The position numbers and the translations under genes were made by a program. From the UHGV virus genome UHGV-0259225: a DNA stretch of 15,804 bases; one strand, 5' to 3'. Positions 237 to 13,676 of this stretch are shown piece after piece. The notes beneath the pieces were generated by a model that made no database searches, was not told the origin of the DNA, and saw nothing but the letters and a program-made list of their open reading frames with translations. Origin of the DNA: a virus. How positions within the stretch are numbered: position 1 is the stretch's first letter; the number at the start of each line of letters is the position of its first letter.

Positions 237-455
237 TCACATCCACATAATTTGCTGCCCTGACGGCAACGGGTGCGGCCTTACGGCGTGGACTTCTCCC
301 GGCTTCACGATGTATCGCTGTACCGACTCATAAGTGATGAACGTGGCACTGCAATTCACGTTCTGACACTGGTGATAACGCTCTTTTGTCGTGTCAGTGA
401 TATAGCGGCTTGTACGCGCATGTGCGGCATGCTGGCATAAAGGACAATGAAACAT
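237..455 (-). CDS. ogr: Ogr, zinc-finger late-gene transcription activator (72 aa)
   Basis: Translation MFHCPLCQHAAHARTSRYITDTTKERYHQCQNVNCSATFITYESVQRYIVKPGEVHAVRPHPLPSGQQIMWM matches recalled P2 Ogr with C-x2-C...C-x4-C zinc motif. I chose the internal ATG (455) rather than the 93-aa ORF-track start because the extension covers the promoter-like AT-rich region and P2 Ogr is 72 aa. Confidence 0.9.
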   Translation of the reverse strand: MFHCPLCQHAAHARTSRYITDTTKERYHQCQNVNCSATFITYESVQRYIVKPGEVHAVRPHPLPSGQQIMWM

Positions 456-489
456 CGCGAGCACCTCTTCCGGTTTTGTTGATGGTGCC

Positions 490-518
490 ATTTTAGTTAA
501 TTTATCCTTATAAAACAA
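490..518 (-). promoter_or_regulatory. Candidate sigma70 promoter for ogr: -35 TTGTTT (plus-strand 513-518) and -10 TAAAAT (plus-strand 490-495), 17-bp spacer
   Basis: Hexamers read on the minus strand in the D-ogr intergenic region; motif match only, no experimental support. Confidence 0.3.
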
Positions 519-536
519 ACAGATAAAATAAAAACA

Positions 537-1700
537 TCACTCATTATCTTCTGTTTCGTACTCCACATCAGAAAGCCTGACCTCAAGCTCCAAGGACGTC
601 GTGAAGCCGCTATTATTCAGAAAATGTGTCACCTTAGTGATTGTCCAGTCCTGCTCGTCTATGACGCGCTTAAAGCCTGACACTTTAACCGGTGTTTCCG
701 TGTAAATATCTGCCCGACCGGTAGCCAGGCTGATGGAGAACTCCGCTACGCCCCGTTGCAGTTTATCCCACTTCGCCTGAGCGGCGCGCATGGCCTGCGC
801 TTTCGTGGCATATACCGTAGTCAGGGCAAAAACGTTATCAGCCTCACCGGCCATGTATTCACCTTCGCGCGCTTCCGGTACTTTAGGCGCTTTCTTCTGC
901 CTGACCGGTTTCGCTTTCGGGTGCTCCAGTGCGCGCAGGTGTTTTTCTTTCTTTTTGCGTTTCAGTTTTACCTTCTGCTTTTGCGGTTTCGGGTCTTTGG
1001 TGTGTAACCACTTTGCTGTTACGCCGGTATAGGCTCCACGGTCAGCAATCGCAAAATGATGGCGGTCGCCGTCACTGCGGGTGATGGTAATATGCGGGAT
1101 TTTTTTACCGCTGGCCGTCACCCCCTGCCCCGCTTTGAGAAACAACAGTTTTCCCATTTTTACCGACACCTCACCGCCGTTGCGTTCTGCAAGGCGGGTC
1201 AGGAATTTTGCATCAGACTCCTGCGACTGGTCGATGTGCGGAATTTTAATTCCGGCCAGTGACGGCGCGACACTGGCTTCCAGCCTGTTACGGGAGGCTA
1301 TCGCCTCAACAATCGCACCGAGCGTGGTGTCATGCCATGAGCCTTCCCGGCGGGAATTGAGCGTCCCGCGAAAATCTGCACTCCGGGCGCGGATGGTGAC
1401 CACATCCGGTGCGCCCCGGTGTTCAACCTCATCAACGGTAAATTTCCCTTTGCATACCAGGGCAAAACCTTTCCAGCCGATATACACCGTCAGGACAGCG
1501 CCACGAACCGGCAGCCCGACCTGCCCGTCGGCATCGTCCAGTTCAATATCAAGCTGGTCAGCCTCAAAGCCCCGGTTATCCGTCAGGGTCATGCTCATCA
1601 GACGGTCGCTGATATTGCCGGTAATATCCCTGCTGTCGAGCATCAGCATGTAATCCGGCGTCAGCGTACTGCCTGCATCAAATGTCAGTGCATCCAGCAT
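537..1700 (-). CDS. D: Tail protein D (late control gene D), 387 aa
   Basis: ORF length and sequence match recalled P2 gpD; position between U and ogr; start overlaps U stop (ATGA). Confidence 0.9.
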   Translation of the reverse strand: MLDALTFDAGSTLTPDYMLMLDSRDITGNISDRLMSMTLTDNRGFEADQLDIELDDADGQVGLPVRGAVLTVYIGWKGFALVCKGKFTVDEVEHRGAPDVVTIRARSADFRGTLNSRREGSWHDTTLGAIVEAIASRNRLEASVAPSLAGIKIPHIDQSQESDAKFLTRLAERNGGEVSVKMGKLLFLKAGQGVTASGKKIPHITITRSDGDRHHFAIADRGAYTGVTAKWLHTKDPKPQKQKVKLKRKKKEKHLRALEHPKAKPVRQKKAPKVPEAREGEYMAGEADNVFALTTVYATKAQAMRAAQAKWDKLQRGVAEFSISLATGRADIYTETPVKVSGFKRVIDEQDWTITKVTHFLNNSGFTTSLELEVRLSDVEYETEDNE

Positions 1701-2179
1701 TATCCCGCCCCCGTCATACCTGTGAATCTGGTCGCCATACTGCCAGCCTTACCGATGAGCGATTCCGCCTGTTTACCGATATCGCCATAAAGCGCGGCCA
1801 GTGATTCATCAACGCGGGTGAGCGACAGCGTAAAATCAATTTTTCGGGGTGTGCCGTCTGCAAAGAAAATACTCCCTGTTTCACTCACCCTGCTGATGAC
1901 ATACATGCCGTAAATCATGCCGGTGCCATCCAGCAACGGCCACGCCCGACCTTCCTCTGCCATCAGCCTGAGCGTGGTCATCGTCAGCTTTCCGCCGGTC
2001 AGTTCGGGATAAAGCACACCGGCAAGCGTGATGTTATCCTCACCCACACCGAGAAACTGAAAGGCATCCCGTTTACCGATACGGGAATTTGACGGCCAGC
2101 GATAATCTGATTCACGCTGCATGGTCTGGTGTGGCAGCGTCTGGCGCATAAAAACAAACATACCTAACGCGAGCATCAT
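1700..2179 (-). CDS. U: Tail protein U, 159 aa
   Basis: Size and synteny with P2 gpU; GGAGGTGA Shine-Dalgarno upstream of ATG. Confidence 0.9.
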   Translation of the reverse strand: MMLALGMFVFMRQTLPHQTMQRESDYRWPSNSRIGKRDAFQFLGVGEDNITLAGVLYPELTGGKLTMTTLRLMAEEGRAWPLLDGTGMIYGMYVISRVSETGSIFFADGTPRKIDFTLSLTRVDESLAALYGDIGKQAESLIGKAGSMATRFTGMTGAG

Positions 2180-2193
2180 TTTTCGTCACCTCC

Positions 2194-4641
2194 TTAACCG
2201 TCATGCATCATGCTGGCACGGGCGCGCGCACGTTTATCCCGCTCGTATTTTTCGAGCGCATCCTGTAACTGGCGGTCAAGCTGTGTCCCCGGCGCAGTAC
2301 CACCCGTCAGGCTGATGTGATATTCGTTTTTACTCTGGTCTACATAAGAGCGGCCAGCCGGTGCCGTGACCGGCTGATAAGCCTGATAGCCTGCATAAGA
2401 GCTGGTCGCCGGAATATAACCACCGGTGCCATACGTGGCGGCATGAGTTCTGGCGGCGGTCTGGTCAAGTGTGTCTGACTCTTTGTTGATGACCCCGAGC
2501 TTTTCCAGTACCCAGTCAATGCCGCTGCGCAGTTTGTTGAACGCATTAAGCGGCAGCATCAGCGCGTCAGCCAGTGCCTGCCCGAACATGACGCCCGTGT
2601 CACGGCAACGGTTCAGGGTGTCCTGTGTGGCTTTGACCGGGGCAATCAGGTTTTTAAACCACTGCCACGCGGCCTGTAACTTTTCGCCCAGCCAGTCAAA
2701 CACCGGCTTAAGTGGCGTGAACAGTTCCCCCACCGGCGCAAATGCCGCTTTCAGCCCTTCCACCACACCGCCAAAGAATGCGCTGACAGGCTCCCAGTAT
2801 TTACGGATAAGCAACGCCCCGGCGACAATGGCGGCCACCACGGCCACAACCGGCCAGCTAATCGCCCCGATGGCCGTCATAACAGCACTGCCAACCGTCG
2901 TGAAGATTGCCCCCATTGCGCCTGCTGCCGCGATGATGGCATTGATGCCGGTGATAACCGGCCAGGCTACAAGACCAATGGCACCGATGATGCCAGTAAG
3001 CGCCAGCGCGCTACCGACAATGAGGCCGATGGTTGACGCCAGTGATTTGTTTTTCTGGATCCAGCCGTCGAGTTTTAACACATACTTTGTGGCCGTCTGA
3101 GTGAGCTTACGCAGTGCGCCTTCCTGCTGGTCAAACAGGTCAGTCCCCACCGCCTCATAAGCGGACTGAAACTCCTTAAAGTCACCGCCGAGGTTATCCT
3201 GCATGATTTTAACCAGCTCTTCCGTTTTACCGTCCGAGGCTTTCAGCGTGGCGGTCAGCTTATCCAGTTTTCCGCTTGCTGCCGCTGCCAGTAAAACGTT
3301 CGCTGATTTCAGGGCTTCCTCACCAAAAATGGTTTTAAGGTATTCCCCCTTCTGAGACGTTCCCAGCTTGTGTTTATCAAAGCTGGCCTGAATCTCTTTC
3401 AGAATGGTGAACAACGGACGCATATTTCCCTTTTTGTCCGAGGTTTTAACGCCAAGCTCTTTGAGTGCATCCCATGCTTTTCCAGTCGGTGCCTGTAATC
3501 GGGTGACAACGGCACTGCTACCCGTCCCCGCCATTGACCCCCTGATGTTATTGTCATGCAGCACACCTGTCATGGCTGCTGCCTGCTCAAGACTTACACC
3601 TGCCGTCCTCGCAACCGGCCCGAGGTAAGTCAGTGCATCACTGAGTCCCTGAAAATCAGCCGCCGACTTATTCATCGTTGCCGACAACACGTCGCCCACA
3701 TGGCTGACATCATCATTTGACAGTTGAAAGGATGCCTTAGTCCCCAGCAACAGTTGCGCGTTTTCTTCCATCGACCGCTGATTCGCCAGTGCCATATTCA
3801 GCGTGACCGGCGTTGCCGCCTGAATAGCCGCAGCATCTCCACCCGCTTTCGCAATGATAATCTGTGCACCGGCTGCATCATCTGCCGAGGCTGCGGTATT
3901 GTCGCCGAGCTGGCGCGCCTGCTTGCGGAGTGCGGTCATTTCGGCGGAGTCTTTTGCCACTCCTAGCACGGCCTGCAATTCTGAGTTTTTCTGCGCAAAC
4001 TCATAACCGGGCATCAGCAGCTTAACTCCGGCCATCGTTCCCGCCGCCGCAATCCCCACACCGGCAGCGCCTACCGAGGCCATATTTCCGGCCAGTTCCT
4101 TTCCGGCCTGATAACGCTGTTTTACTGCGTTAAGTTTTGCCTGTTGCGCACTGACACGCGCCAGCGCGTCACGCTGACGGTTAAGTTGTGCGGTGGTTTC
4201 ACTGATACGGTTTTTCAGTCCCTGCTCATCATGTGCAAGATTGCGGGTATTAATTCCCACAACGGCCAGTTCCCGTTGCTGGCGTTTAACGGAATCCGTC
4301 AGGCGGTTATATTTCGCCTGTAAGTCCTCCGCCGCACGCTTTGCGGATTCCAGCACTTTCGCCTGAGCACGGGTCGGACGTTCGGTGTTTTTAAACTGTG
4401 TGGCAAGGGCTTCGGCTTCCTGCCGTGCCTTTTCAAGTGCATGACCAGTCACGGCGAGCTGTGCACTGGTCTTGCGGAATCCCTCAATACGGGATGCGTG
4501 ACCGTTCAGCTCGCGCAGTGATTTTTGTGTTTCCCGGATATCCCCCGACAGCGATTTGCTCGCTGTACGGATGGATTTAAACGGGCGGGATGCCTGGTCA
4601 ACAGCCCTGAGCAATACCTGTAATTTTACATTGTTACTCAT
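2194..4641 (-). CDS. T: Tail tape measure protein T, 815 aa
   Basis: 815 aa as in P2 gpT; coiled-coil-rich N-terminal half, Gly/Ala-rich hydrophobic central segment typical of tape measure proteins; start overlaps E' stop. Confidence 0.9.
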   Translation of the reverse strand: MSNNVKLQVLLRAVDQASRPFKSIRTASKSLSGDIRETQKSLRELNGHASRIEGFRKTSAQLAVTGHALEKARQEAEALATQFKNTERPTRAQAKVLESAKRAAEDLQAKYNRLTDSVKRQQRELAVVGINTRNLAHDEQGLKNRISETTAQLNRQRDALARVSAQQAKLNAVKQRYQAGKELAGNMASVGAAGVGIAAAGTMAGVKLLMPGYEFAQKNSELQAVLGVAKDSAEMTALRKQARQLGDNTAASADDAAGAQIIIAKAGGDAAAIQAATPVTLNMALANQRSMEENAQLLLGTKASFQLSNDDVSHVGDVLSATMNKSAADFQGLSDALTYLGPVARTAGVSLEQAAAMTGVLHDNNIRGSMAGTGSSAVVTRLQAPTGKAWDALKELGVKTSDKKGNMRPLFTILKEIQASFDKHKLGTSQKGEYLKTIFGEEALKSANVLLAAAASGKLDKLTATLKASDGKTEELVKIMQDNLGGDFKEFQSAYEAVGTDLFDQQEGALRKLTQTATKYVLKLDGWIQKNKSLASTIGLIVGSALALTGIIGAIGLVAWPVITGINAIIAAAGAMGAIFTTVGSAVMTAIGAISWPVVAVVAAIVAGALLIRKYWEPVSAFFGGVVEGLKAAFAPVGELFTPLKPVFDWLGEKLQAAWQWFKNLIAPVKATQDTLNRCRDTGVMFGQALADALMLPLNAFNKLRSGIDWVLEKLGVINKESDTLDQTAARTHAATYGTGGYIPATSSYAGYQAYQPVTAPAGRSYVDQSKNEYHISLTGGTAPGTQLDRQLQDALEKYERDKRARARASMMHDG

Positions 4642-5061
4642 TCGTGTTTCCGCTTCGCCGGAGCGCCTTTTCGCGCCATGTGATGAGTTCGGTCAGGCTC
4701 ATGGGATACAGTTCTGATGGCGGCCAGTGAAATATCACTGCCACATCTGCCATCAGGTCATCGACCGACAGATTTTTCGGAAACGTCACTGCACCGAGTT
4801 CGGAGACAAAAAACCGACCACCTTACCGGCCAGCGCCACAAGGTCAGGCAGTTCCAGCGCGGCGACCTCCTGCTCGGTCAGCATCGGTGCCGTCATGCGC
4901 GGCAGCACCTTAATCAGTGCATCGACTTCGGAGTTTGCGACCGCAGCCAGACTGACACCGCGCAGCGTCCCGGCATTAGGTTTCATCAGCGTGACCTGTT
5001 CGATAACCTGCTCACCACGCTTGACCGGATTGTCCAGGGTAATCACATTTTCTTTGTTCAT
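4634..5061 (-). CDS. E+E': Tail assembly chaperone fusion E+E' (142 aa) made by programmed -1 ribosomal frameshift at 4807-4813
   Basis: I translated the -1 frame by hand downstream of the slippery heptamer: VSELGAVTFPKNLSVDDLMADVAVIFHWPPSELYPMSLTELITWREKALRRSGNTNE, stop TAA at 4634-4636, 4 nt into T. Total 85 + 57 = 142 aa, as in P2. Confidence 0.85.
4786..5061 (-). CDS. E: Tail assembly chaperone E (91 aa, zero-frame product)
   Basis: 91-aa ORF between FII and T, same size and position as P2 gpE. Confidence 0.9.
   Translation of the reverse strand: MNKENVITLDNPVKRGEQVIEQVTLMKPNAGTLRGVSLAAVANSEVDALIKVLPRMTAPMLTEQEVAALELPDLVALAGKVVGFLSPNSVQ
4807..4813 (-). promoter_or_regulatory. Slippery heptamer T TTT TTG (minus strand) for the E/E' -1 frameshift
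   Basis: Codons GGT TTT TTG in E frame verified by hand; canonical X XXY YYZ site, analogous to lambda G/GT. Confidence 0.8.
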
Positions 5062-5089
5062 GGTTTTCTCACTTCTGAATCGGGGTTAA

Positions 5090-5110
5090 CCGGTCAGCCA
5101 GGCTGACCGG
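5090..5110 (-). promoter_or_regulatory. Perfect inverted repeat (cggtcagcc a ggctgaccg) in the FII-E intergenic spacer; candidate mRNA stem-loop / attenuator
   Basis: Seen in sequence; the minus-strand RNA hairpin is followed by UUAACCCCGAUU (not U-rich), so not a classical terminator. Confidence 0.4.
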
Positions 5111-5117
5111 ATGAAAA

Positions 5118-5636
5118 TCACAGGCCGATATTGCGGCGGTGTTGCTCCAGCCGGTCGACGCCGTTCACCTTCTCAATCATGTTGATGGTGTCGATTTCGA
5201 CCAGCTCCTTACCGTCCATCGTCAGCCGGAAATAGGTGCAGACCACGGAGATTTTCGACTCGGTGTCTTCTCCCTGTTTACCCTCGCCGGTGTCGATTTC
5301 TTTCTGACGTCCACGCATGACCACTTCGACGGCCACCGTTTCGCCGGTATCGTCGCGCTGGTAAGAGCCTGCAAAACGAATCGGCACGGCATCCACACCG
5401 GTTGCGGCGTAAAGCTCCCAGATAACCGAATCCGGGAAGCCACCGAGCGACCACTCCATTGACAGCGCATCGTCATCAAGGCCGAGGTCTACCGGTGCGC
5501 TGCCGTTCATCCCCGCACCGCGATAGTTTTCGAGCTTACGGGTCAGTTTTGGCAGCGTGACGGACTTTGCAACGCCCTGATAGCTGTAGCCGTTCAGAAA
5601 GACGTTCATTAACTTGAGTTTGCGCGGCATTGCCAT
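5118..5636 (-). CDS. FII: Major tail tube protein FII, 172 aa
   Basis: Size and sequence consistent with P2 gpFII; immediately downstream of sheath gene; AAGGAG RBS. Confidence 0.9.
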   Translation of the reverse strand: MAMPRKLKLMNVFLNGYSYQGVAKSVTLPKLTRKLENYRGAGMNGSAPVDLGLDDDALSMEWSLGGFPDSVIWELYAATGVDAVPIRFAGSYQRDDTGETVAVEVVMRGRQKEIDTGEGKQGEDTESKISVVCTYFRLTMDGKELVEIDTINMIEKVNGVDRLEQHRRNIGL

Positions 5637-5648
5637 CGGTCAGGCTCC

Positions 5649-6839
5649 TTAATTGCTGTTAACCGAGGTGACCAGACTTGCCAGGTATCTTGAAGTAATA
5701 CGCTGGCGTAGGGTCAGGTTTTCGAGAGGAGGCACCGGTGTATAGTCGTAGTCGATATACAGTTTTCCGGCCTTGAGGGTTTCCGCATCGTTGGCTTCTT
5801 CACTGAACCAGCATGTGCCATCCACGATATAACCGTTGTTTTTCAGTTCGCGGAATTTGGCATTGATGCCATCAATGATGTCGCGAATCAGCGTTGCGGT
5901 GATGGGCTTATCAATAGCCCACATGTGCGCCTCAGCCATCGTGTCGGCCAGTACCTGCGCGGTACGTGTGTAGCTTTCAAAGAGGAAAAGTGGGTCATCG
6001 GAGCAGGTACGGTTACCCCAGAAACGGAAACCGTCGCGGCGAACCAGCGTTGTGACGCCTGCCTCGTTCAGCAGGTCAGCATCAGTGCCAGACTTCTGCA
6101 AATCCCAGAATACAGATGCGCTGATGCCGGTAACACCGTTTACCCCGACGTTGGACAGCGTTTTATGCCAGCCCTGCTCCTGGTCGATTTTGGCACGCAG
6201 CCCCAGCGCACGGGCGGTGGCATACGCGGTGGCGGTGGTACTGGTGACCGTATCCCATGCAAGGAAATCCGGCCAGATGACCATCAGCTCACGCTGACTG
6301 AAATTCTGACGGTAGGCTTTTGCCTCGGAAATGGTTTTACAGCCCCATGCGCTGATATACCCGAAGGCATTCAGTTCCTGGCATACCGATGCCAGTGCAA
6401 CCGCCACCTCTTTGGTGTCCAGTCCCGGTACGCCGAGAATGCGCGGTTTAACGCCGGTAACCGACTCTGCGCCCATCAGGGCTTTCAGTCCGGTGTACTG
6501 ACCGTTTTCGTCAGTGGTGCCGATGATATTGGAAACGGTCTGCGCGAGTTTCGTTTCTTCGTCGTCGCCGGTGCCGTCTTCCACGCGCACGACAACGGTG
6601 ACCGGTTTTGACTGGTCAGCGATGGCCTGCAACGATGCCGCCAGCGTGCCTTTTTTACCGGCCTTTGCAATCGCGCTCTGCACATTGGTGATCAGCACCG
6701 GTTTATTGACGGGGAAGGTTTCCGCATCCGCATCGCTGGCCGTGCAGACCATGCCAACAATGGCGGTGGATACGGTGGAAATGACGCGGGTGCCGTCGTT
6801 AATCTCCAGCACCTGCACGCCGTGATGATAGTCACTCAT
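5649..6839 (-). CDS. FI: Major tail sheath protein FI, 396 aa
   Basis: 396 aa as P2 gpFI; first gene of the FI-FII-E-T-U-D operon; GGAG RBS 9 nt upstream. Confidence 0.9.
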   Translation of the reverse strand: MSDYHHGVQVLEINDGTRVISTVSTAIVGMVCTASDADAETFPVNKPVLITNVQSAIAKAGKKGTLAASLQAIADQSKPVTVVVRVEDGTGDDEETKLAQTVSNIIGTTDENGQYTGLKALMGAESVTGVKPRILGVPGLDTKEVAVALASVCQELNAFGYISAWGCKTISEAKAYRQNFSQRELMVIWPDFLAWDTVTSTTATAYATARALGLRAKIDQEQGWHKTLSNVGVNGVTGISASVFWDLQKSGTDADLLNEAGVTTLVRRDGFRFWGNRTCSDDPLFLFESYTRTAQVLADTMAEAHMWAIDKPITATLIRDIIDGINAKFRELKNNGYIVDGTCWFSEEANDAETLKAGKLYIDYDYTPVPPLENLTLRQRITSRYLASLVTSVNSN

Positions 6840-6930
6840 CCGTTTAACTCCGTGGTTAATGGGTGCAACTATTTTCTGTTGTGCAGAGCATGAGACGCTA
6901 TTTGACCTGGCTGGTCAGTGGATGAAACAA
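6840..6930 (-). promoter_or_regulatory. Expected location of the Ogr-dependent late promoter P_F; contains partial dyads (TGT-N12-ACG at 6880-6897; TGACC-N5-GGTCA at 6903-6917)
   Basis: Position is by synteny with P2 (P_F precedes FI). P2 late promoters carry a TGT-N12-ACA dyad near -55; only imperfect matches found here. Confidence 0.3.
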
Positions 6931-6963
6931 CAGATAAAGAAAAGGCGGGCAATTCGCCCGCCT
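6931..6963 (-). terminator. Rho-independent terminator on minus strand: stem aggcgggc/gcccgcct (6943-6950 / 6956-6963), loop aattc, followed on the minus strand by UUUUCUUUAUCUGUUGUUU
   Basis: Read directly. Ends the G/cargo transcript and insulates it from the FI operon. Confidence 0.7.
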
Positions 6964-7060
6964 GTCCTGATTTGAACTCACTCATTTTCCGACTGACAAT
7001 TTACATAGCCCAAAAGTTATCAAATCTGACGGTCTGCTTTGAACAAGAAGCGGACATTTG

Positions 7061-7087
7061 CCTGTCAGGGTATATGCCGCTCTGCGG
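7061..7087. repeat. Left copy of an imperfect inverted repeat flanking the cargo cassette (CCTGTCAGG-gtatat-GCCGCTCTG)
   Basis: Partner at 7911-7928 reads CAGAGCGG-CCTGTCAG on the plus strand, i.e. the reverse complement with a 6-7 nt deletion and one mismatch. Confidence 0.35.
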
Positions 7088-7168
7088 TTATTATCCAGAA
7101 TCAATAATTCATCTGAGTTGGATTACATATAAAACATAGTTACCCCATGAATAACCATTAGCAGATTA

Positions 7169-7762
7169 TCAATTATGTAAATCTTTTATTTTATGTTCTT
7201 TGGCGTGTTGTGACAACAAATGGCTATAGCGTTTAAGCAAAATATTAGAAAGATTAAGCTCATTCATGAAGTGTTCTTCTAATAAGTAACCATCAATATC
7301 AACTTTAATATCATTACCACTTTTCATCTTCTGTAACGTAGATTTTACACGCTCCAGCAGGATGCTTTGCTCATGGTAATAGTCCATAAGAAGAGTAACA
7401 TCCTCTTTATCAAGCTTACTTAATTCGCTGAAGTAGGATTTAAACACTTTATCACTCTGGTTTAATGCAATCTGTAAGCGAGGCCCCCCTAATGATTTGA
7501 CATTAATGGCAAAAGGCTCGCCAACAAAATGCTCCGAATTTTCGTCAAAGCCAATATATCTCGTTTTATCAAGAAAAGTGAGAGCGCGATGGTTATTAGC
7601 GATTTCATATGCAAACATTGTTCTGATACTGTCCCTCTCAGCCTCCATGCTTATATCATCACGATGATTTGTATAAAATATATTTCCAACAAAGAGAACC
7701 ATAGCAAGAATCACTGAACTTGCCTCCCAGTTAATATTTTTTAATCGTCGCTTAGTAAACAT
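7169..7762 (-). CDS. Hypothetical membrane-anchored protein (197 aa), AT-rich cargo gene at the Z/fun-equivalent position; candidate phage-exclusion/defence protein
   Basis: Intact ORF with AAGGTG RBS; N-terminal KRRLK followed by hydrophobic segment SSVILAMVLFVGNIFY (one predicted TM helix), then a charged, likely helical domain. GC content visibly lower (mid-30s % by eye) than flanking tail genes (>50%). No motif I can assign. Confidence 0.75.
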   Translation of the reverse strand: MFTKRRLKNINWEASSVILAMVLFVGNIFYTNHRDDISMEAERDSIRTMFAYEIANNHRALTFLDKTRYIGFDENSEHFVGEPFAINVKSLGGPRLQIALNQSDKVFKSYFSELSKLDKEDVTLLMDYYHEQSILLERVKSTLQKMKSGNDIKVDIDGYLLEEHFMNELNLSNILLKRYSHLLSQHAKEHKIKDLHN

Positions 7763-7983
7763 ACCGCACCTTAATTATCAAAAATATTCCTTCAGTGTTA
7801 TCTGGTTAGCCTAAACCAAGTCATTAAAGTCTGCAGGATATCATATACATAAAATGTATTGATTAGAATTTGCACTAATAAAATAATGCTTTACTAAAAT
7901 CTACTCCAGACACAGAGCGGCCTGTCAGATTAGGCTTTACTCTGTGCCATAGATACGTTTGCTCACTCCAGAGATCATACAAC
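7763..7983 (-). promoter_or_regulatory. AT-rich 220-bp region upstream of the cargo gene; probable autonomous promoter region
   Basis: No ORF; strongly AT-rich with several TATA-like hexamers (e.g. TATGAT, TATATG on minus strand). No confident -35/-10 pair assigned. Confidence 0.3.
7911..7928. repeat. Right copy of the imperfect inverted repeat flanking the cargo cassette
   Basis: See 7061-7087. Confidence 0.35.
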
Positions 7984-8511
7984 TTATTGCGGCATTTCCG
8001 GCCATTCAGGATTTGCAGGATCCACACGACTGACCAGAACGCTGTAACGCTCCCATGCATCCAGTCGGCTACGCTCCTCATCTGTTGCCATGTTCAGTCT
8101 GACCGCGCGCTCCAGCGGCAAAATCACGGATTCAGCTTCGGAAAGTAAAGTTGCCTTTTGTGATTCTGCCAGTTGCTGCTGTTCGTCTGCCGTATAAATC
8201 CGCTTAATCACGGCACCATCCTTAAACATCCATTTACCTGAGTCATCAGCACGTCGGTTAGCGGTAATATCAGGAACCTCGACAACGCTAAAACCTTCAG
8301 GATGAAGCGTTGAAGCATCTCTGGTGATGGCGACAATAATATTATTCTCGTCGTAAACAATTTTTATTGTGTCTGGCTGAAAATTACTTACTTCCTCATA
8401 CCAGTTTTTTCCGTCTTCGGACCATAACCAGATAACATCAAAATTCTTTGTTAGCTGATATTGTTCTTTTGTTTTTGGATTACCTGACTTAATGTTTTTT
8501 AAATGCTGCAT
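7984..8511 (-). CDS. G: Tail fibre assembly protein G (Tfa-type chaperone), 175 aa
   Basis: 175 aa as P2 gpG; immediately downstream of H. The 5' third of the gene is markedly AT-rich. Confidence 0.85.
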
Positions 8512-8514
8512 AAT

Positions 8515-11250
8515 TTACACCTGCGCAACGTTATACCATGTGCCATTGATGTATTTTTGTATTGGTCTGAATACTGCGGGGTCATCACCATCGACTTCAC
8601 CGACAATACCAAGCCCCGTGATTACATGGCCTGATTTTTCATACATCACGCCTTTTTGCATGGTCTGAACAACACGTGTGCCAAGTCTGACATCTCTCAC
8701 ATAGCGGGAATCAAAGTTACCGTAATCCGAGGGATTAACACGCCCCGTAATATTTATGGTTTTATTACTTTGAATACTTCCCGAGACAAAGCGCATAATA
8801 TGGACGCTATTAGCATAAACATCCAGATTACCATCACCATTTTGTTTAAAGCCCGTGTCATTATCACCCAAAACAATCGAATTACCGCCAAGAGCACTGG
8901 ATGTTCCTATACCCAGAGCACCATTCAATTGACCACCAGATAACGGCAGTGCACCGACATCTCCCGCTGTAGGTTTTCGCGTTGTGGTATAAAACTCAGA
9001 CCAGTCAGCCTCGAATCCGTAACCGTCACGAGCAGAACGATAAAAAATACCGCCGTTCTTATAATTAACGCGGAACTGGGCGGCGGGACAACTTCCTTCA
9101 CCGATATTAAAATGAAGAATTAACGTTGATGCCCCACCAGTAGTTGCGTTATAGGCTCCGCTACTCCAGTTCCACCCAACGGCTTTATCATTCGCAACGG
9201 TGTCTCCTGTTTTTCCTGAAGCAAATGCACCAATATTTTTCGGCGTCAGGTTAATATCTGATGTTCCATCAAACGAAACGTTATTAATTTTACGGGCTGT
9301 TTTCAGCTTTGTTGCTGTCGCCGCATTGCCGGACAGTTCACCAGAAAGGCCAGCACTGAATGTCTGTTTCGCGCCCCATGTCTGGGCTTCGTCAATGATT
9401 GGTACTCGTCTTGCTGTGATCGTGCGGCTTCCCGGATTTCCTGAAATACGCACCATAAAAAATCGGTAGTTCGCTTTACTTACAGTGCTGCGCCATACAT
9501 GCATTGAGCGCCCCGTACCGGAATCATCACTCGGACCAACTGCGATGTTTATCAGGTTGCCATCAATGACGCCCCAGTCCATACCGTCGGGAATATTGGT
9601 CATATTATCCAGCCTAACGGCTATCAGACTGCCCGGCACAAAATCGTAGCTCTGCCAGTCCAGACTGGATAGTTTTGCCACTGCGCCACCGATGCCCAGA
9701 TTCAGAGGCAACGAAAAGGAGTTATATACTTCTCGCCATTCGGTCCATTTTCTCCCGGCATAGACGCGCTCAAAAGTGCGCCCCTGTGTGGTTTCTGATT
9801 TCCCTGTGGTTGTGTAACGCTGCCAGACAGATACACCATCAAAACGCCTGATTACTTCCAGTATTCCAAGCAGTGTCGCTCCAGCGGTATCCTGCATTGG
9901 ACCGTTTGACGCCTTCCCTGTAACGCTGTAAATGCCTGGCGAAGTCAGATCATTCAAATCACCTTCGTAATAACGACATTCTGACTGATGGCCTACTCTT
10001 GACCACGGCTCCCACTGTGGGTTCTGTGCATTCCATGTAGCAGAAAGGCAGCGAACATATACGTTCCCACGGCGGGTCGTATAGCGTTGCGTGCGTGAGT
10101 ACCCACCACCCTCAAGAACTTCAAGGAATCCCTGACCATAACTTCCTTCTTCCGGATAGTTGCGGTCAAATGAAGCGATAGAGCCACTACTGTTTCGCCA
10201 TAAACCAAGATGCTCTGCGCCTCCTAGCGTGTTCAGGTCAATAGTTGTGCTCAGGGGGCGTGTTGCAGACTGAATCTGACGCCAGTAGCTCCACGGACCG
10301 TCTGAGCCATTCCAGGTGCCAGAAAGATTACGCATATAAACATTGCCAGTTCTGGTGGTATAACGCTGCATTCCGGAAAAATTACCGCCATTGAATACCT
10401 CAAGAACACCGACTGCACCGTCTTCAGGGAAATTTTTCTCCAGTGTTGCGTTGGAGGATGTGGATTTATACCAGACACCCACATAAGCCTTAACTGGACC
10501 AAATGTATTGAGATCAGCATCAACCGGCATTTCGCCGTTGTTTTTCATAAACGTCAGGCTGGTAACACCAATATTGTCCAGAAAAGCTGATTTATCCTGG
10601 ATATCTGCACCGTTCTGATTTTTCGCCAGACGTGAATTTGCGTTGTCATTTGCTGCCTTGACCGCTTTTGGCGTTGCCGCCAGCTCTTCACTGGTGCTGT
10701 TTGTTGCACTGCTTAACTGAGTAAAACCTTTTTCTGTCAGCGTGGCGTCAGGATGGCGGCGGGACTGCTCATGCTCTGCGATTTTGTCATCGACGTAATC
10801 CTGCGTCGCCATCACTGTGCTGGCATCAATACTCAGCTCAACGGACGCCACGTTGCTGAGAATAATAACCATGCGGCAGGTCTGCGCACGTCCGGAGCCT
10901 TCAGCCAGTTCTGGCTTATAGCTTTCTGCCATGTTGGACACCGCAATCAGTGTTCCGGCATCGTCATACAGACCAAGTTCACGCATCCAGAAGCCGCCCA
11001 CTTCTGGCGGTACAACCAGTTCAGCCACGATATAGTTTTTATTCTTGTTATCCACGCTGACTTTATTCAGAGCGTGACGCCAGACCTCATGCACCAGTTT
11101 CGTCTGACCGGCATCCGGCACCGGCAATTTGCCATTACCGTCACCCACGGCCATTGCAGACAGGTTTACTTTTTTCCCGCCGGGGACAGTGGCGGCTGCC
11201 AGCTTTGCGGCTCCGGCAGTAGTGATAACGGTTTTAAATTTCGTGCTCAT
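8515..11250 (-). CDS. H: Tail fibre protein H, 911 aa (P2-like N-terminus, expanded repeat-containing shaft, divergent C-terminal receptor-binding region)
   Basis: N-terminal ~230 aa match recalled P2 gpH (MSTKFKTVITTAGAAKLAAATVPGG...); located between I and G. Confidence 0.9.
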   Translation of the reverse strand: MSTKFKTVITTAGAAKLAAATVPGGKKVNLSAMAVGDGNGKLPVPDAGQTKLVHEVWRHALNKVSVDNKNKNYIVAELVVPPEVGGFWMRELGLYDDAGTLIAVSNMAESYKPELAEGSGRAQTCRMVIILSNVASVELSIDASTVMATQDYVDDKIAEHEQSRRHPDATLTEKGFTQLSSATNSTSEELAATPKAVKAANDNANSRLAKNQNGADIQDKSAFLDNIGVTSLTFMKNNGEMPVDADLNTFGPVKAYVGVWYKSTSSNATLEKNFPEDGAVGVLEVFNGGNFSGMQRYTTRTGNVYMRNLSGTWNGSDGPWSYWRQIQSATRPLSTTIDLNTLGGAEHLGLWRNSSGSIASFDRNYPEEGSYGQGFLEVLEGGGYSRTQRYTTRRGNVYVRCLSATWNAQNPQWEPWSRVGHQSECRYYEGDLNDLTSPGIYSVTGKASNGPMQDTAGATLLGILEVIRRFDGVSVWQRYTTTGKSETTQGRTFERVYAGRKWTEWREVYNSFSLPLNLGIGGAVAKLSSLDWQSYDFVPGSLIAVRLDNMTNIPDGMDWGVIDGNLINIAVGPSDDSGTGRSMHVWRSTVSKANYRFFMVRISGNPGSRTITARRVPIIDEAQTWGAKQTFSAGLSGELSGNAATATKLKTARKINNVSFDGTSDINLTPKNIGAFASGKTGDTVANDKAVGWNWSSGAYNATTGGASTLILHFNIGEGSCPAAQFRVNYKNGGIFYRSARDGYGFEADWSEFYTTTRKPTAGDVGALPLSGGQLNGALGIGTSSALGGNSIVLGDNDTGFKQNGDGNLDVYANSVHIMRFVSGSIQSNKTINITGRVNPSDYGNFDSRYVRDVRLGTRVVQTMQKGVMYEKSGHVITGLGIVGEVDGDDPAVFRPIQKYINGTWYNVAQV
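9721..10518 (-). repeat. Three tandem diverged ~280-bp (~93-aa) repeats inside H (protein residues ~245-337, 338-430, 431-510)
   Basis: Each unit starts DLN(T/D)(F/L) and contains FPEDG/YPEEG ... LEV ... QRYTT(R/T) ... GNVY(M/V)R ... W; DNA copies are diverged but recognisable (e.g. cctcaagaac near 10110 and 10390). Confidence 0.7.
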
Positions 11251-11260
11251 TGTTTCTCAC

Positions 11261-11791
11261 TTATCCGGGATAAACAGTAATAACATCACCATCACAGACC
11301 ACACCGCCTGTATACAGATAGCCGGGAATGTCCTGGATAATGTTCAGACCGATAAGGTGGCGACTTGCGGGTTTGGCATCGGCAATCAGCCGTTCCATTT
11401 CCAGATACATCTCCTCTGTGATACCGCTTTCCAGCACACCGATATCAAGGCGAAAGGTTCCGGGCGGGTCGTTTGTCTCCCACCATTCCTTTACGTTAAT
11501 GAGATAGCCGAGCGGCTCCACCACACGCCGGATTGCGCCTATAGTGCCTTTATGACAGTGGATGAAATACGCATCGCGGATCACGGCGCGTTTTGTCGCT
11601 TCCGGCCACTTTTCATCCCACCTGTCGACCGAAAACGCCCACGCCAGCCACGGCAGCAGATTTGCCGGACAGGTGCCCGGGTTCCACAGCTCACGAATAC
11701 TGACCGGTGTCTTTTCAATTTCCGCACAGGCTTTTGCGGCAGCAACTTCAAGCGGTGATGAGCCGGTCGGCAGCAGTCGCGAATCACTCAT
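11261..11791 (-). CDS. I: Baseplate assembly protein I, 176 aa
   Basis: Size and synteny with P2 gpI. Confidence 0.9.
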   Translation of the reverse strand: MSDSRLLPTGSSPLEVAAAKACAEIEKTPVSIRELWNPGTCPANLLPWLAWAFSVDRWDEKWPEATKRAVIRDAYFIHCHKGTIGAIRRVVEPLGYLINVKEWWETNDPPGTFRLDIGVLESGITEEMYLEMERLIADAKPASRHLIGLNIIQDIPGYLYTGGVVCDGDVITVYPG

Positions 11792-12692
11792 CCGAGCCTC
11801 CGGTCACGACGCGGTATTCGGTACAGAAAGACGCCTGCGTACTGTTGAGCACGATGTCGGCCAGCGGTGCAGTCAGTTCGACACGCTGCACGCCTTCCAC
11901 ATGCAAAGCGGCATAAATGGCAGACAGACGGATGTCGCGCCCCAGCCGGTGCTGTGCCGTGATGTACGCTTCCAGTTTTTTCACGGCAGCAGCGCGGATG
12001 GGTTCGCTTTCGGGACCAGGGTAAAGGTAAAGCGTGGCGTTTATCTGGTATTCAACAATGGCGGCAGACTGCACGGTCACGCGGTCGGCCACCGGCCTGA
12101 CGTCCTCGCCATTAAGGGCATTACGCACCACGGCCAGCAGGTCTTCGGATGCGACACCGTTATTTTCACGTGACAGCACGGAGATGGTGACGCAGGCCGG
12201 AGACGGACTGGTGACAGAGATATCCGCGACACGCCCGTCGGCACTGCGGCCATGATACTGATAGGCTCCCACCGACCCGGCGACGCTTAAGCCTTCAAAC
12301 GCCTGCTGAATACGCAGACGATAATCCGTGTCAGATTCCATCACTGCCGGTGTCGGCGGGATGGTCGAATCATCTGCCGGGGTGATAGTCAGGCGCGTGG
12401 TGTTGTAATTGGCACCAATCACATCAAGGTCATTACCGGCGGCACAGGCCAGCATCACCGCCCGTGCGGCCTCATTCACACGCTGACGCCAGATAAGCTC
12501 ACGATAAGCATTTTCCTCCAGCAGTTTGACGAGAGGCTCGGATTCCAGCGTCAGGGTACGGGCGACCGCCTCCTGCTGGTCTTCCGGGTAAAGGGAAATC
12601 AGTGTCGCCTTGCGTTCAGCGAGAATGGTTTCAAAGTCCAGCTCCTCGACCACATCCGGTGCGGGTAGCTGGTTCAGGTCGATAATCGGCAT
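11784..12692 (-). CDS. J: Baseplate assembly protein J, 302 aa
   Basis: Size and synteny with P2 gpJ; 8-nt overlap with I. Confidence 0.9.
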   Translation of the reverse strand: MPIIDLNQLPAPDVVEELDFETILAERKATLISLYPEDQQEAVARTLTLESEPLVKLLEENAYRELIWRQRVNEAARAVMLACAAGNDLDVIGANYNTTRLTITPADDSTIPPTPAVMESDTDYRLRIQQAFEGLSVAGSVGAYQYHGRSADGRVADISVTSPSPACVTISVLSRENNGVASEDLLAVVRNALNGEDVRPVADRVTVQSAAIVEYQINATLYLYPGPESEPIRAAAVKKLEAYITAQHRLGRDIRLSAIYAALHVEGVQRVELTAPLADIVLNSTQASFCTEYRVVTGGSDE

Positions 12693-12696
12693 GGTT

Positions 12697-13044
12697 TCAA
12701 CTCACAGGGATGGTTAATGAAAGTGGCTGGCCGGTGTCGTTGTGCTGGCCGGTTAACGTGACCGTCATTCGCCCGTCAAAGCTGCGCTCAGTGATGACGG
12801 ATGACAGGGTGACGCGGGGTTCCCATTTCAGCACTGCCATGTAACAGGCTACCTTAATCTGCAACTCAAGCGCCGGGGTCTGCGGCTGGTCAATCATTGA
12901 CGCCAGCAACGAGCCGTAATCACGACGCATCACCCGTGAGCCGACCGGCGTGCGCAGGATATCGCCGATACTCTGGCTGATATGCTCAAGGTCAGTGACC
13001 GTCAGGCCATCACTGCGATTCATTCCGAGATAACGCGCTGTCAT
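12697..13044 (-). CDS. W: Baseplate wedge protein W, 115 aa
   Basis: Size and synteny with P2 gpW; start overlaps V stop (ATGA). Confidence 0.9.
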   Translation of the reverse strand: MTARYLGMNRSDGLTVTDLEHISQSIGDILRTPVGSRVMRRDYGSLLASMIDQPQTPALELQIKVACYMAVLKWEPRVTLSSVITERSFDGRMTVTLTGQHNDTGQPLSLTIPVS

Positions 13045-13676
13045 AAAGGACTCCCGGTTGTGCCGCCGCTGTCGCCGGGGTGTTTATGGGTATGCAGTAC
13101 CTTACCGTTTGATGAGAGTTCACCGCCGGTGTGTTCAATGTTGCCGCGCATCGTCCCGCCCTTCTGTACTTCCAGCGTGCCGGTAATCAGCCTGTTGGTG
13201 CAGACCACCTCCGGCGTGTCCAGGGTGATGCGGGTTGATGCTTTCACCATGACCACCGGCACCGTGGCAGTAACAGAATCAGAAGCCGTCACGCTGGCCG
13301 TTTTAACTCCGCTTACCGTGAGCGCGCTGGTTTCAGGTTCATACTCAATCACCGCCCCGTCAGGGAAACGGATATACAGGGCATCCGCCGACGCAGACGG
13401 CGCGGGGTTATCGCCGGAATAAATCCCCGGCAGAACGAACGCCGTGTCGAGTTCACCACCCACGGCCAGAATCAGCACCTGTTCCCCCACGGAAGGTGCC
13501 CACCATGTGCGCGAACGCCCGGCGCGATGGGTCAGCCACTGAAGCCAGTCGGTGCACATGCCGCCGGTCTGCACACGGCAGCGACCGGCATTAAGGTCGG
13601 TTTCGACGATAATGCCGGTGCGGATCATGTTGCGCAGTGCGCGCGCGAGTTCCTGAATATTTGCGAGAGTGTTCAT
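13041..13676 (-). CDS. V: Baseplate spike protein V, 211 aa
   Basis: Size and synteny with P2 gpV; first gene of the V-W-J-I-H-G operon. Confidence 0.9.
   Translation of the reverse strand: MNTLANIQELARALRNMIRTGIIVETDLNAGRCRVQTGGMCTDWLQWLTHRAGRSRTWWAPSVGEQVLILAVGGELDTAFVLPGIYSGDNPAPSASADALYIRFPDGAVIEYEPETSALTVSGVKTASVTASDSVTATVPVVMVKASTRITLDTPEVVCTNRLITGTLEVQKGGTMRGNIEHTGGELSSNGKVLHTHKHPGDSGGTTGSPL

What the first reader, a model, noticed from the sequence alone, without database searches (positions are those of the whole stretch)
8515..11250. Tail fibre H enlarged to 911 aa by three tandem ~93-aa repeats, with a divergent receptor-binding end
The N-terminal baseplate-attachment region is P2-like, but the protein is ~240 aa longer than P2 gpH as I recall it (~670 aa). 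The excess corresponds to roughly three tandem repeats (residues ~245-510; DNA 9721-10518), each with a conserved QRYTT...GNVYxR core. Tandem repeats in the shaft change fibre length and are recombination substrates. The H 3' end and the G 5' end (about 8300-9500) are more AT-rich than the rest of the tail cluster, suggesting a horizontally exchanged host-range cassette.
Basis: partly seen in the sequence, partly recalled or inferred. Interest (0 to 1): 0.5.

Follow-up and report, generated by a model that had tools for sequence, protein, structure and literature searches.

The report
Known mosaic P2-type tail fibre
This is the tail-fibre gene of a P2-like prophage of E. coli, of an already described long mosaic type (as in the plague-diagnostic phage L-413C) whose middle holds three tandem 'pyocin knob' domains; it is ordinary and already in the databases.

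Summary
The ORF is real: 8515-11250 on the minus strand, 911 aa, lying between genes I and G of a P2-like prophage. It is 242 aa longer than P2 gpH (669 aa).

The repeats are real. Copies 1 and 2 (residues 236-330 and 331-425) are 45% identical. Copy 3 (426-520) is much more diverged but has the same predicted topology. They are globular 'pyocin knob' domains, not shaft repeats. This domain is a widespread mobile tail-fibre module found in 1 to 6 copies.

They are not DNA repeats. Aligned codons are 40-51% identical and the longest shared word is 10 nt. All ten close relatives have exactly three.

The extra length is not an insertion into P2 H. Residues 208-769 replace an unrelated P2 segment. 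That replacement includes a domain very similar to Mu S' (E 3.7e-48).

The extreme tip (770-911) and G are P2-type; G is 94% identical to P2 G. The low G+C of the H 3' end and G 5' end is real, but P2 itself has the same values.

Among relatives, variation is concentrated in the knob array and in a roughly 40-aa stretch of the tip that co-varies with the N-terminal part of G.

The protein is 99.9% identical to Peduovirus P24B2 H and 82% to L-413C gpH, whose mosaic was published in 2008. Already known; low interest.

The parts
8515..11250 (-). Gene H, tail fibre, 911 aa (stop codon at 8515-8517).
   Evidence: ORF list and translation. 99.9% identical to Peduovirus P24B2 H and 81.8% to L-413C gpH. 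100% DNA identity to E. coli EC18 and an ST1193 chromosome. RefSeq calls it 'phage tail-collar fiber domain-containing protein'.
10630..11250 (-). H residues 1-207: P2-type N-terminal baseplate-attachment module.
   Evidence: 84% aa identity to P2 H 1-207. PF12571 covers 1-151, E 3e-57. DNA homology to P2 resumes at 10645. Pairwise identity among 10 alleles is 0.98.
10552..10752 (-). H residues 167-233: tail-fibre repeat / rod segment, Mu S-like.
   Evidence: PF03406 covers 170-211, E 5e-21. Matches Mu S (5yvq) residues 110-176, E 1.4e-15.
10261..10545 (-). H residues 236-330: knob domain 1.
9976..10260 (-). H residues 331-425: knob domain 2.
   Evidence: Same evidence as knob 1. hhalign of R1 against R2 gives probability 99.7%, E 2e-26.
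9691..9975 (-). H residues 426-520: knob domain 3, diverged.
   Evidence: 26% identity to knob 1. Invariant DLN, G.LEV, QRYTT and W..W motifs. hhalign E 2e-5 to 2e-3. Same predicted strand order, pLDDT 75-85. Most variable unit among alleles, pairwise identity 0.73.
9238..9690 (-). H residues 521-671: middle segment of unknown fold, ending in the conserved GNAATATKL...FDG junction motif.
   Evidence: No Pfam hit. Not related to the knobs. AF2 pLDDT below 50. PHROG tail-fibre families match it. Homology with P24A7b and other fibres ends at about residue 673.
8944..9237 (-). H residues 672-769: Mu S'-type domain (Pfam gp37_C).
   Evidence: Matches 8ju3 (Mu S/S' fibre) residues 321-417, E 3.7e-48, with most aligned positions identical in the printed alignment. 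PF12604 covers 679-754. Pairwise identity among alleles is 0.99.
8518..8943 (-). H residues 770-911: P2/pro147-type distal tip, including the variable stretch at about 858-900 and the conserved end RPIQKYINGTWYNVAQV.
   Evidence: Aligns to P2 H 472-669, minus 56 aa. DNA homology to P2 at 7911-8721 and 8807-8896. G+C 0.432. Near-identical to the pro147 tip. In P88/pro147 a 31-aa region in the C-terminal part of H (residues 716-746 of P88) sets host range (PMC5285337); I infer by position, not by alignment, that it corresponds to this stretch.
7984..8511 (-). Gene G, tail fibre assembly protein (Tfa), 175 aa, partner of the H tip.
   Evidence: PF02413, E 3e-35. 94% identical to P2 G. The N-terminal half has G+C 0.371. 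G residues 1-120 co-vary with the H tip in relatives.

Best explanation
This is the H tail-fibre gene of a P2-like (Peduovirus) prophage of E. coli, of the long 'L-413C type'. The protein is a mosaic of four modules:
1. A P2-type N-terminus (1-207) that anchors the trimeric fibre to the baseplate.
2. A module of three tandem pyocin-knob domains (236-520) plus a segment of unknown fold (521-671).
3. A Mu S'-type domain (672-769).
4. A P2/pro147-type distal tip (770-911), folded with the help of the adjacent G chaperone.

The three knobs arose by ancient domain duplication. Today they are distinct globular trimeric domains stacked along the fibre.

Inferred, not shown:
- The tip makes the primary contact with the LPS core.
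- The variable knob surfaces offer secondary sugar-binding sites that help orient the fibre, as proposed for Knob2 of the R-type pyocin fibre.

New variants arise by exchange of knob segments and of the tip/G cassette between alleles of different phages. They do not arise by unequal recombination between the repeats.
For: Identity and context:
- The gene order I-H-G and the rest of the P2 tail cluster match.
- H is collinear with L-413C gpH (81.8%) and Peduovirus P24B2 H (99.9%).
- The published four-part mosaic of L-413C gpH (N-terminal 207 aa and C-terminal 137 aa P2-like, middle unrelated) matches what I see (PMC7460101 citing Garcia 2008).

Knob assignment:
- NCBI names close homologues 'pyocin knob domain-containing protein'.
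- Foldseek matches R1 pyocin fibre 6cl5_A at E 4e-7.
- The same predicted strand order (about six short strands) recurs three times.

Modularity of the domain:
- 632 clusters at 50% identity carry it. The top 149 have 1 to 6 copies, with a median spacing of 98 aa.
- RBPseg lists 'Pyocin knob' as a mobile tail-fibre pseudo-domain.

Mu S' domain: E 3.7e-48 to 8ju3.

Variation pattern among 10 alleles:
- Pairwise aa identity is 0.73-0.82 in the knobs and 0.79 in the last 76 aa, against 0.98-0.99 elsewhere.
- Nucleotide identity to L-413C is 50-67% in the knobs against 98-99% in the flanks. Different relatives differ in different knobs.
- dN/dS is 0.07-0.16 with dS up to more than 1. This indicates imported old alleles.

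Tip and G: they co-vary, and host range maps to a 31-aa region in the C-terminal part of H in P88/pro147.
Against: - No function of the knobs was tested here. Strands are only slightly more conserved than loops (0.81 against 0.75, p = 0.02).
- The AF2 model is a monomer with a shallow alignment (mean pLDDT 59, pTM 0.30). The relative placement of domains is meaningless, and residues 510-655 are unmodelled.
- Sequence-only links to the pyocin knob are weak (E 0.24 to 6cl5). No Pfam or NCBIfam model matches the repeats.
- Knob 3 is only marginally related to knobs 1 and 2 by sequence.
- The receptor of this particular fibre is unknown. The LPS-core assignment is taken from L-413C.
Confidence: 0.85

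Rival explanations
1. The repeats are passive length spacers in the fibre shaft. Their number changes by unequal recombination, tuning fibre length.
For: The fibre is 242 aa longer than P2 H. Across the wider family the domain occurs in 1 to 6 tandem copies. Buth et al. note that repeated elements allow fibre length to be adjusted.
Against: There is no DNA repeat. Aligned codons are 40-51% identical and the longest shared word is 10 nt, too short for homologous recombination. All ten close relatives (909-919 aa) have exactly three knobs. The knobs are the most variable part of the protein, which is not expected of an inert spacer. The fold is a globular domain, not a shaft motif.
Confidence: 0.1
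2. The knob array acts mainly as a folding and trimerisation nucleus for the long fibre, with no role in receptor choice.
For: Buth et al. suggest that knob-like domains, with their multiple hydrophobic cores, are important for trimer folding (PMC6116203). The predicted strands are somewhat more conserved than the loops. dN/dS is low.
Against: A pure folding role does not explain why the knobs are replaced by alleles only 50-67% identical between otherwise 98-99% identical genes. In R-type pyocins Knob2 is the most diverse region and tracks killing spectrum.
Confidence: 0.2
3. The H 3' end and G 5' end are a host-range cassette recently acquired by this prophage from another phage family, as indicated by low G+C.
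For: G+C is 0.37-0.43 against 0.56-0.57 in the flanking tail genes. The tip and G N-terminus are exchanged together in P24E6b, P22H1 and P24C9. The tip carries gp37-like and Mu S-like motifs.
Against: The window's G is 94% identical to P2 G, and the tip is P2/pro147-type, with DNA homology to P2 across 7911-8721. P2 itself has the same G+C, 0.434 and 0.371. Any horizontal origin therefore predates the split from P2.
Confidence: 0.05

Closest known systems
Yersinia phage L-413C gpH (913 aa; Garcia et al. 2008) and H of Peduovirus P24B2, vB_YpM_50/22, vB_EcoM-569R9
   Same: Collinear over the full length (81.8-99.9% aa identity). Same I-H-G context. Same four-part mosaic, with a P2-like N-terminal 207 aa and a P2-like C-terminal ~140 aa. 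Three knobs in every member.
   Different: Only allelic differences. Against L-413C the knob array is 50-67% identical in DNA while the flanks are 98-99%.
Bacteriophage P2 gpH (669 aa) and gpG
   Same: N-terminal 207 aa (84% identity). Distal tip (101 of 142 aligned residues identical). G is 94% identical. Same operon position and the same AT-rich tip/G composition.
   Different: P2 H 208-471 is unrelated and has no knob domains; it has a second Phage_fiber_2 repeat and a Gp34_trimer domain instead. P2 has 56 extra residues in the tip.
R-type pyocin fibres of Pseudomonas aeruginosa (PDB 6CL5, 6CL6, 6CU2): tandem Knob1 and Knob2 domains
   Different: Three knobs here rather than two. Sequence similarity is marginal (E 0.24). 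The distal part is a Mu S'/P2-type tip with a Tfa chaperone, not a lectin-like foot.
Bacteriophage Mu tail fibre S' (G(-) orientation; PDB 8JU3) and S (5YVQ)
   Same: Residues 672-768 match S' residues 321-417 at E 3.7e-48. Residues 167-233 and the last ~65-75 residues also match Mu S or S'.
   Different: There is no invertible G segment and no gix site here. About 75 P2-type residues sit between the S'-like domain and the tip. The N-terminal attachment module differs.

Membership tests
P2-family (Peduovirus) gpH tail fibre | N-terminal tail-collar fibre domain (PF12571) homologous to P2 H | tested here: met
   PF12571 covers 1-151, E 3e-57. 84% identity to P2 H 1-207.
P2-family (Peduovirus) gpH tail fibre | Position in the V-W-J-I-H-G operon, followed by a Tfa-type assembly gene | tested here: met
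   Tail_P2_I lies upstream and Caudo_TAP downstream. Collinear with the P2 annotation.
P2-family (Peduovirus) gpH tail fibre | Forms the trimeric tail fibre of the virion and binds the host | not testable with these tools
   Binding to Y. pestis cells was shown experimentally only for the homologue L-413C GpH (PMC7460101).
L-413C-type long mosaic H | Full-length collinear homology, with P2-like ends and a non-P2 middle | tested here: met
   100% coverage at 81.8% identity to L-413C gpH. Homology to P2 is limited to residues 1-207 and 770-911. This matches the published description.
Pyocin knob domain (as named by NCBI; Knob1/Knob2 of R-type pyocin fibres) | Fold: small antiparallel beta-sheet of five or six strands with connecting loops, similar to 6CL5/6CL6 | tested here: met
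Pyocin knob domain (as named by NCBI; Knob1/Knob2 of R-type pyocin fibres) | Detectable sequence relationship to the pyocin knobs | tested here: inconclusive
   A profile of the three repeats hits the 6cl5 knob at E 0.24 and Pa193 gp47 at E 0.012. There is no Pfam or NCBIfam model. NCBI's own naming of close homologues supports it.
Pyocin knob domain (as named by NCBI; Knob1/Knob2 of R-type pyocin fibres) | Trimeric assembly with the sheets buried around the three-fold axis | not testable with these tools
   Only a monomer could be modelled.
Mu S' distal fibre domain | Sequence homology to the S' variable part | tested here: met
   Residues 672-768 against 8ju3 residues 321-417, E 3.7e-48.
Invertible host-range segment (Mu G / P1 C type) | Flanking inverted repeats or gix sites, and an alternative fibre end on the opposite strand | tested here: not met
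   No gix-like site with up to 3 mismatches; the site sequence was recalled from memory. No long inverted repeats in 6800-9600.
Tandem DNA repeat / contingency locus | Head-to-tail repeats that are similar at the DNA level | tested here: not met
   TRF and the repeat finder find nothing with a period of about 279 nt. Nucleotide identity is 40-51% and the longest shared word is 10 nt.

The most novel reading that the evidence does not exclude
In L-413C-type fibres the knob array, not the tip, may be the main variable determinant of host range. Patchwise exchange of single knobs between alleles would then create new specificities. The Mu S'-like domain and most of the tip are 98-100% conserved between phages isolated on Y. 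pestis and E. coli prophages, whereas the knobs differ by up to 50% in DNA. This would extend to P2-like phages the Knob2 idea proposed for R-type pyocins.
Probability: 0.25. Interest if true: 0.45.

Novelty: already known. Interest (0 to 1): 0.15.

Why it matters
It matters little as a discovery. The same protein is deposited (Peduovirus P24B2, several E. coli chromosomes). The mosaic was described for L-413C in 2008. The repeat is an annotated, widespread tail-fibre domain.

The practical value is for fibre engineering and host-range prediction. In this fibre class the exchangeable parts are the knob array and the tip/G cassette. The N-terminus, the junction motif at about residue 640-672 and the Mu S'-like domain are nearly invariant. 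The invariant parts are natural splice points for chimeric fibres or retargeted tailocins.

Tried and rejected
- BLASTP of H against itself returned only the diagonal. I replaced it with a diagonal-sum dot-plot and Smith-Waterman scoring with shuffles.
- Pfam, NCBIfam and PHROGs have no dedicated model for the repeat unit.
- TRF and the direct-repeat finder found no DNA repeat with the expected period.
- A possible fourth knob at residues 521-614 was rejected: hhalign probability was 0.4% or less.
- The fold of residues 510-655 could not be modelled (pLDDT below 50). A second homologue search found mostly the conserved junction motif, so I ran no further search on it.
- A Mu/P1-like invertible segment was considered because of the S'-like domain and rejected.
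- A suspected frameshift artefact in L-413C, raised by about 50% codon-wise nt identity in the knobs, was checked by direct DNA alignment and rejected. The divergence is real, with a single 6-nt indel.
- Recent positive selection as the source of knob diversity was rejected, because dN/dS is 0.07-0.16 with very high dS.
- PADLOC found nothing for the AT-rich ORF next to G.
Full report
**What is at the coordinates**

The window is the late (tail) region of a P2-like prophage, with all genes on the minus strand. ORF 8515..11250 (-) encodes 911 aa. Gene I lies upstream (Tail_P2_I, 11261-11791). A Tfa-type assembly gene G lies downstream (Caudo_TAP, 7984-8511). The order matches the annotated V-W-J-I-H-G and FI-FII-E-T-U-D operons of P2.

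The stretch 6800-11800 is 100% identical to the chromosomes of E. coli EC18 and an ST1193 isolate. There the ORF is annotated 'phage tail-collar fiber domain-containing protein'. The protein is 99.9% identical to H of Peduovirus P24B2. It is 87-95% identical to H of several E. coli and Yersinia pestis P2-like phages, and 81.8% identical to gpH of the plague-diagnostic phage L-413C.

**Length and relation to P2 H**

The excess is not an insertion, for three reasons:
- Residues 1-207 are 84% identical to P2 H.
- Residues 770-911 align to P2 H 472-669, with 101 identities over 142 aligned residues. P2 carries 56 extra residues there.
- Residues 208-769 have no similarity to P2 H 208-471.

At the DNA level, homology to P2 covers 491-7054, 7911-8721, 8807-8896 and 10645-13676. 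It is absent from 8897-10644. This is the four-part mosaic published for L-413C gpH, with a P2-like N-terminal 207 aa, a P2-like C-terminal 137 aa and a mosaic middle (Garcia et al. 2008, as summarised in PMC7460101).

**The repeats**

A diagonal-sum dot-plot gives its two strongest off-diagonal signals at offsets 93 and 91.

| Comparison | Result |
|---|---|
| Unit 1 (236-330) vs unit 2 (331-425), identity | 45% |
| Unit 1 vs unit 2, Smith-Waterman | 207 against 29 +/- 5.6 for shuffles (z = 32) |
| Unit 1 vs unit 2, hhalign | E 2e-26 |
| Unit 3 (426-520) vs unit 1, identity | 26% |
| Unit 3 vs units 1 and 2, Smith-Waterman | z = 4.1 and 2.6 |
| Unit 3 vs units 1 and 2, hhalign | E 2e-5 to 2e-3 |

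Unit 3 keeps the motifs DLN, G.LEV, QRYTT and W..W, but not GNVYxR. In an AlphaFold2 model of residues 212-680, all three units have pLDDT of about 70-85 and the same order of strands and short helices.

At the DNA level there is no repeat. TRF and the repeat finder report nothing with a period of about 279 nt. Aligned codons are 40-51% identical, and the longest shared exact word is 10 nt.

**What the unit is**

NCBI names close homologues 'pyocin knob domain-containing protein'. The structural searches agree:
- Foldseek matches the R1 pyocin fibre 6cl5_A at E 4e-7, and Staphylococcus phage receptor-binding proteins.

phi11 gp45, phage K gp144 and T4 gp34 are the proteins that Buth et al. (PMC6116203) list as sharing the Knob1/Knob2 fold. 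Sequence-only evidence is weak (E 0.24 to 6cl5). Pfam and NCBIfam have no model for the unit.

The domain is widespread and modular. A profile of the three units finds 632 clusters at 50% identity with E up to 1e-3. In the best 149 proteins the copy number is 1 (35 proteins), 2 (54), 3 (44), 4 (9), 5 (6) or 6 (1), with a median spacing of 98 aa. RBPseg already lists 'Pyocin knob' as a mobile tail-fibre pseudo-domain (PMC12143355). The three-knob module occurs in 256 of 5426 complete E. coli genomes, including 33 places on plasmids. P2 H and pro147 H have no knobs.

**The rest of the protein**

- Residues 167-233 carry a Phage_fiber_2 repeat and match Mu S.
- Residues 521-671 have no assigned fold. 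They are not knob-like and have pLDDT below 50. They end in the GNAATATKL...FDG motif, where homology with otherwise different fibres stops (P24A7b and prophage side tail fibres).
- Residues 672-768 match the S' part of the Mu fibre 8ju3 at E 3.7e-48, with most aligned positions identical in the printed alignment.
- There is no gix site and no inverted repeat, so there is no invertible segment.
- The tip (770-911) is P2/pro147-type, and G is 94% identical to P2 G.

**Composition**

| Region | G+C |
|---|---|
| H tip, 8518-8943 | 0.432 |
| G, 5' half | 0.371 |
| H middle | 0.47-0.53 |
| Rest of the tail cluster | 0.555-0.571 |

P2 shows the same values, 0.434 and 0.371. The low G+C is therefore an old property of the P2-family tip/G module and not a sign of exchange in this prophage. 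The lowest G+C in the window (0.35) belongs to the neighbouring ORF 7169-7762, outside the finding.

**Where variation lies**

I aligned ten full-length alleles (909-919 aa, all with three knobs). Mean pairwise identity by segment is as follows:

| Segment | Mean pairwise identity |
|---|---|
| 1-207 | 0.98 |
| Knob 1 | 0.77 |
| Knob 2 | 0.82 |
| Knob 3 | 0.73 |
| 521-614 | 0.91 |
| 615-835 | 0.98-0.99 |
| 836-911 | 0.79 |

Against L-413C the knobs are 50-67% identical in DNA, while the flanks are 98-99% identical. vB_EcoM-569R9 differs mainly in knob 3. vB_YpM_50 and P24E6b differ mainly in knobs 1 and 2. The array is therefore a patchwork made by inter-allelic exchange. dN/dS is 0.07-0.16 with dS up to more than 1. 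This points to import of old alleles and not to recent positive selection.

In P24E6b, P22H1 and P24C9 the H tip stretch at about 858-900 and G residues 1-120 are replaced together. The extreme H C-terminus and the G C-terminus stay conserved. This supports the idea of a tip/G cassette in general. In P88/pro147 a 31-aa region in the C-terminal part of H (residues 716-746 of P88) sets host range (PMC5285337). I take it, by position and not by alignment, to correspond to this stretch.

**Mechanism**

Shown:
- The module boundaries.
- The knob fold, at the level of a predicted monomer.
- The distribution of variation among alleles.

Inferred from established knowledge of P2, Mu and R-type pyocin fibres:
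- The N-terminus anchors a trimer to the baseplate.
- The three knobs form successive globular trimeric domains.
- G chaperones the tip.
- The tip contacts the LPS core. For L-413C the receptor is the terminal GlcNAc of the outer core.
- The variable knob surfaces act as secondary sugar-binding sites that orient the fibre, as proposed for pyocin Knob2.

The rival readings (passive spacer, folding nucleus) are not excluded for the knobs, but they explain the variation pattern less well.

**Verdict**

The object is a known fibre type built from known modules. Novelty: already known. Interest: low.

Noticed in passing
window 7055-7910 (ORF 7169-7762, minus strand): A 197-aa ORF with G+C 0.35 and a hydrophobic N-terminal stretch occupies the G-FI gap, where P2 carries fun(Z). 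This stretch has no DNA homology to P2. RefSeq calls it 'lysogenic conversion protein'. It matches phrog_3829 (unknown function), with no Pfam, NCBIfam or PADLOC hit. Relatives carry different cargo at the same site: a NUDIX plus HAD hydrolase pair in P24C9, a metal-binding-domain protein in pro147, and other ORFs in L-413C and vB_YpM_50.
   Followed up: partly
phage record NC_070906.1 / OU784746.1 (hits H21, H22): A 31,490-bp record named 'Peduovirus P2' carries the long knob-type H (86.8% identical over all 911 aa), not the canonical 669-aa P2 H of NC_001895. The name 'P2' in the databases therefore does not imply the classical fibre.
   Followed up: no
window 237-518, minus strand: A 93-aa ORF with an Ogr/Delta zinc finger (PF04606, E 2e-21), the late-gene activator expected after gene D. 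It gave a weak and probably spurious PADLOC hit to PD-T7-4 (E 0.0025).
   Followed up: partly
E. coli plasmids, hits H67, H77, H79: The three-knob module also occurs on plasmids of about 48 kb and 95 kb (33 places in total), annotated as tail fibre or phage tail protein. These may be phage-plasmids. This shows the module moves between unrelated phage backbones.
   Followed up: no
P0037 (1300 aa): A tail protein with six knob copies arranged as two triplets (216-480 and 719-983) and a Phage_tail_C_2 C-terminus. It looks like a duplication of a whole three-knob block.
   Followed up: no
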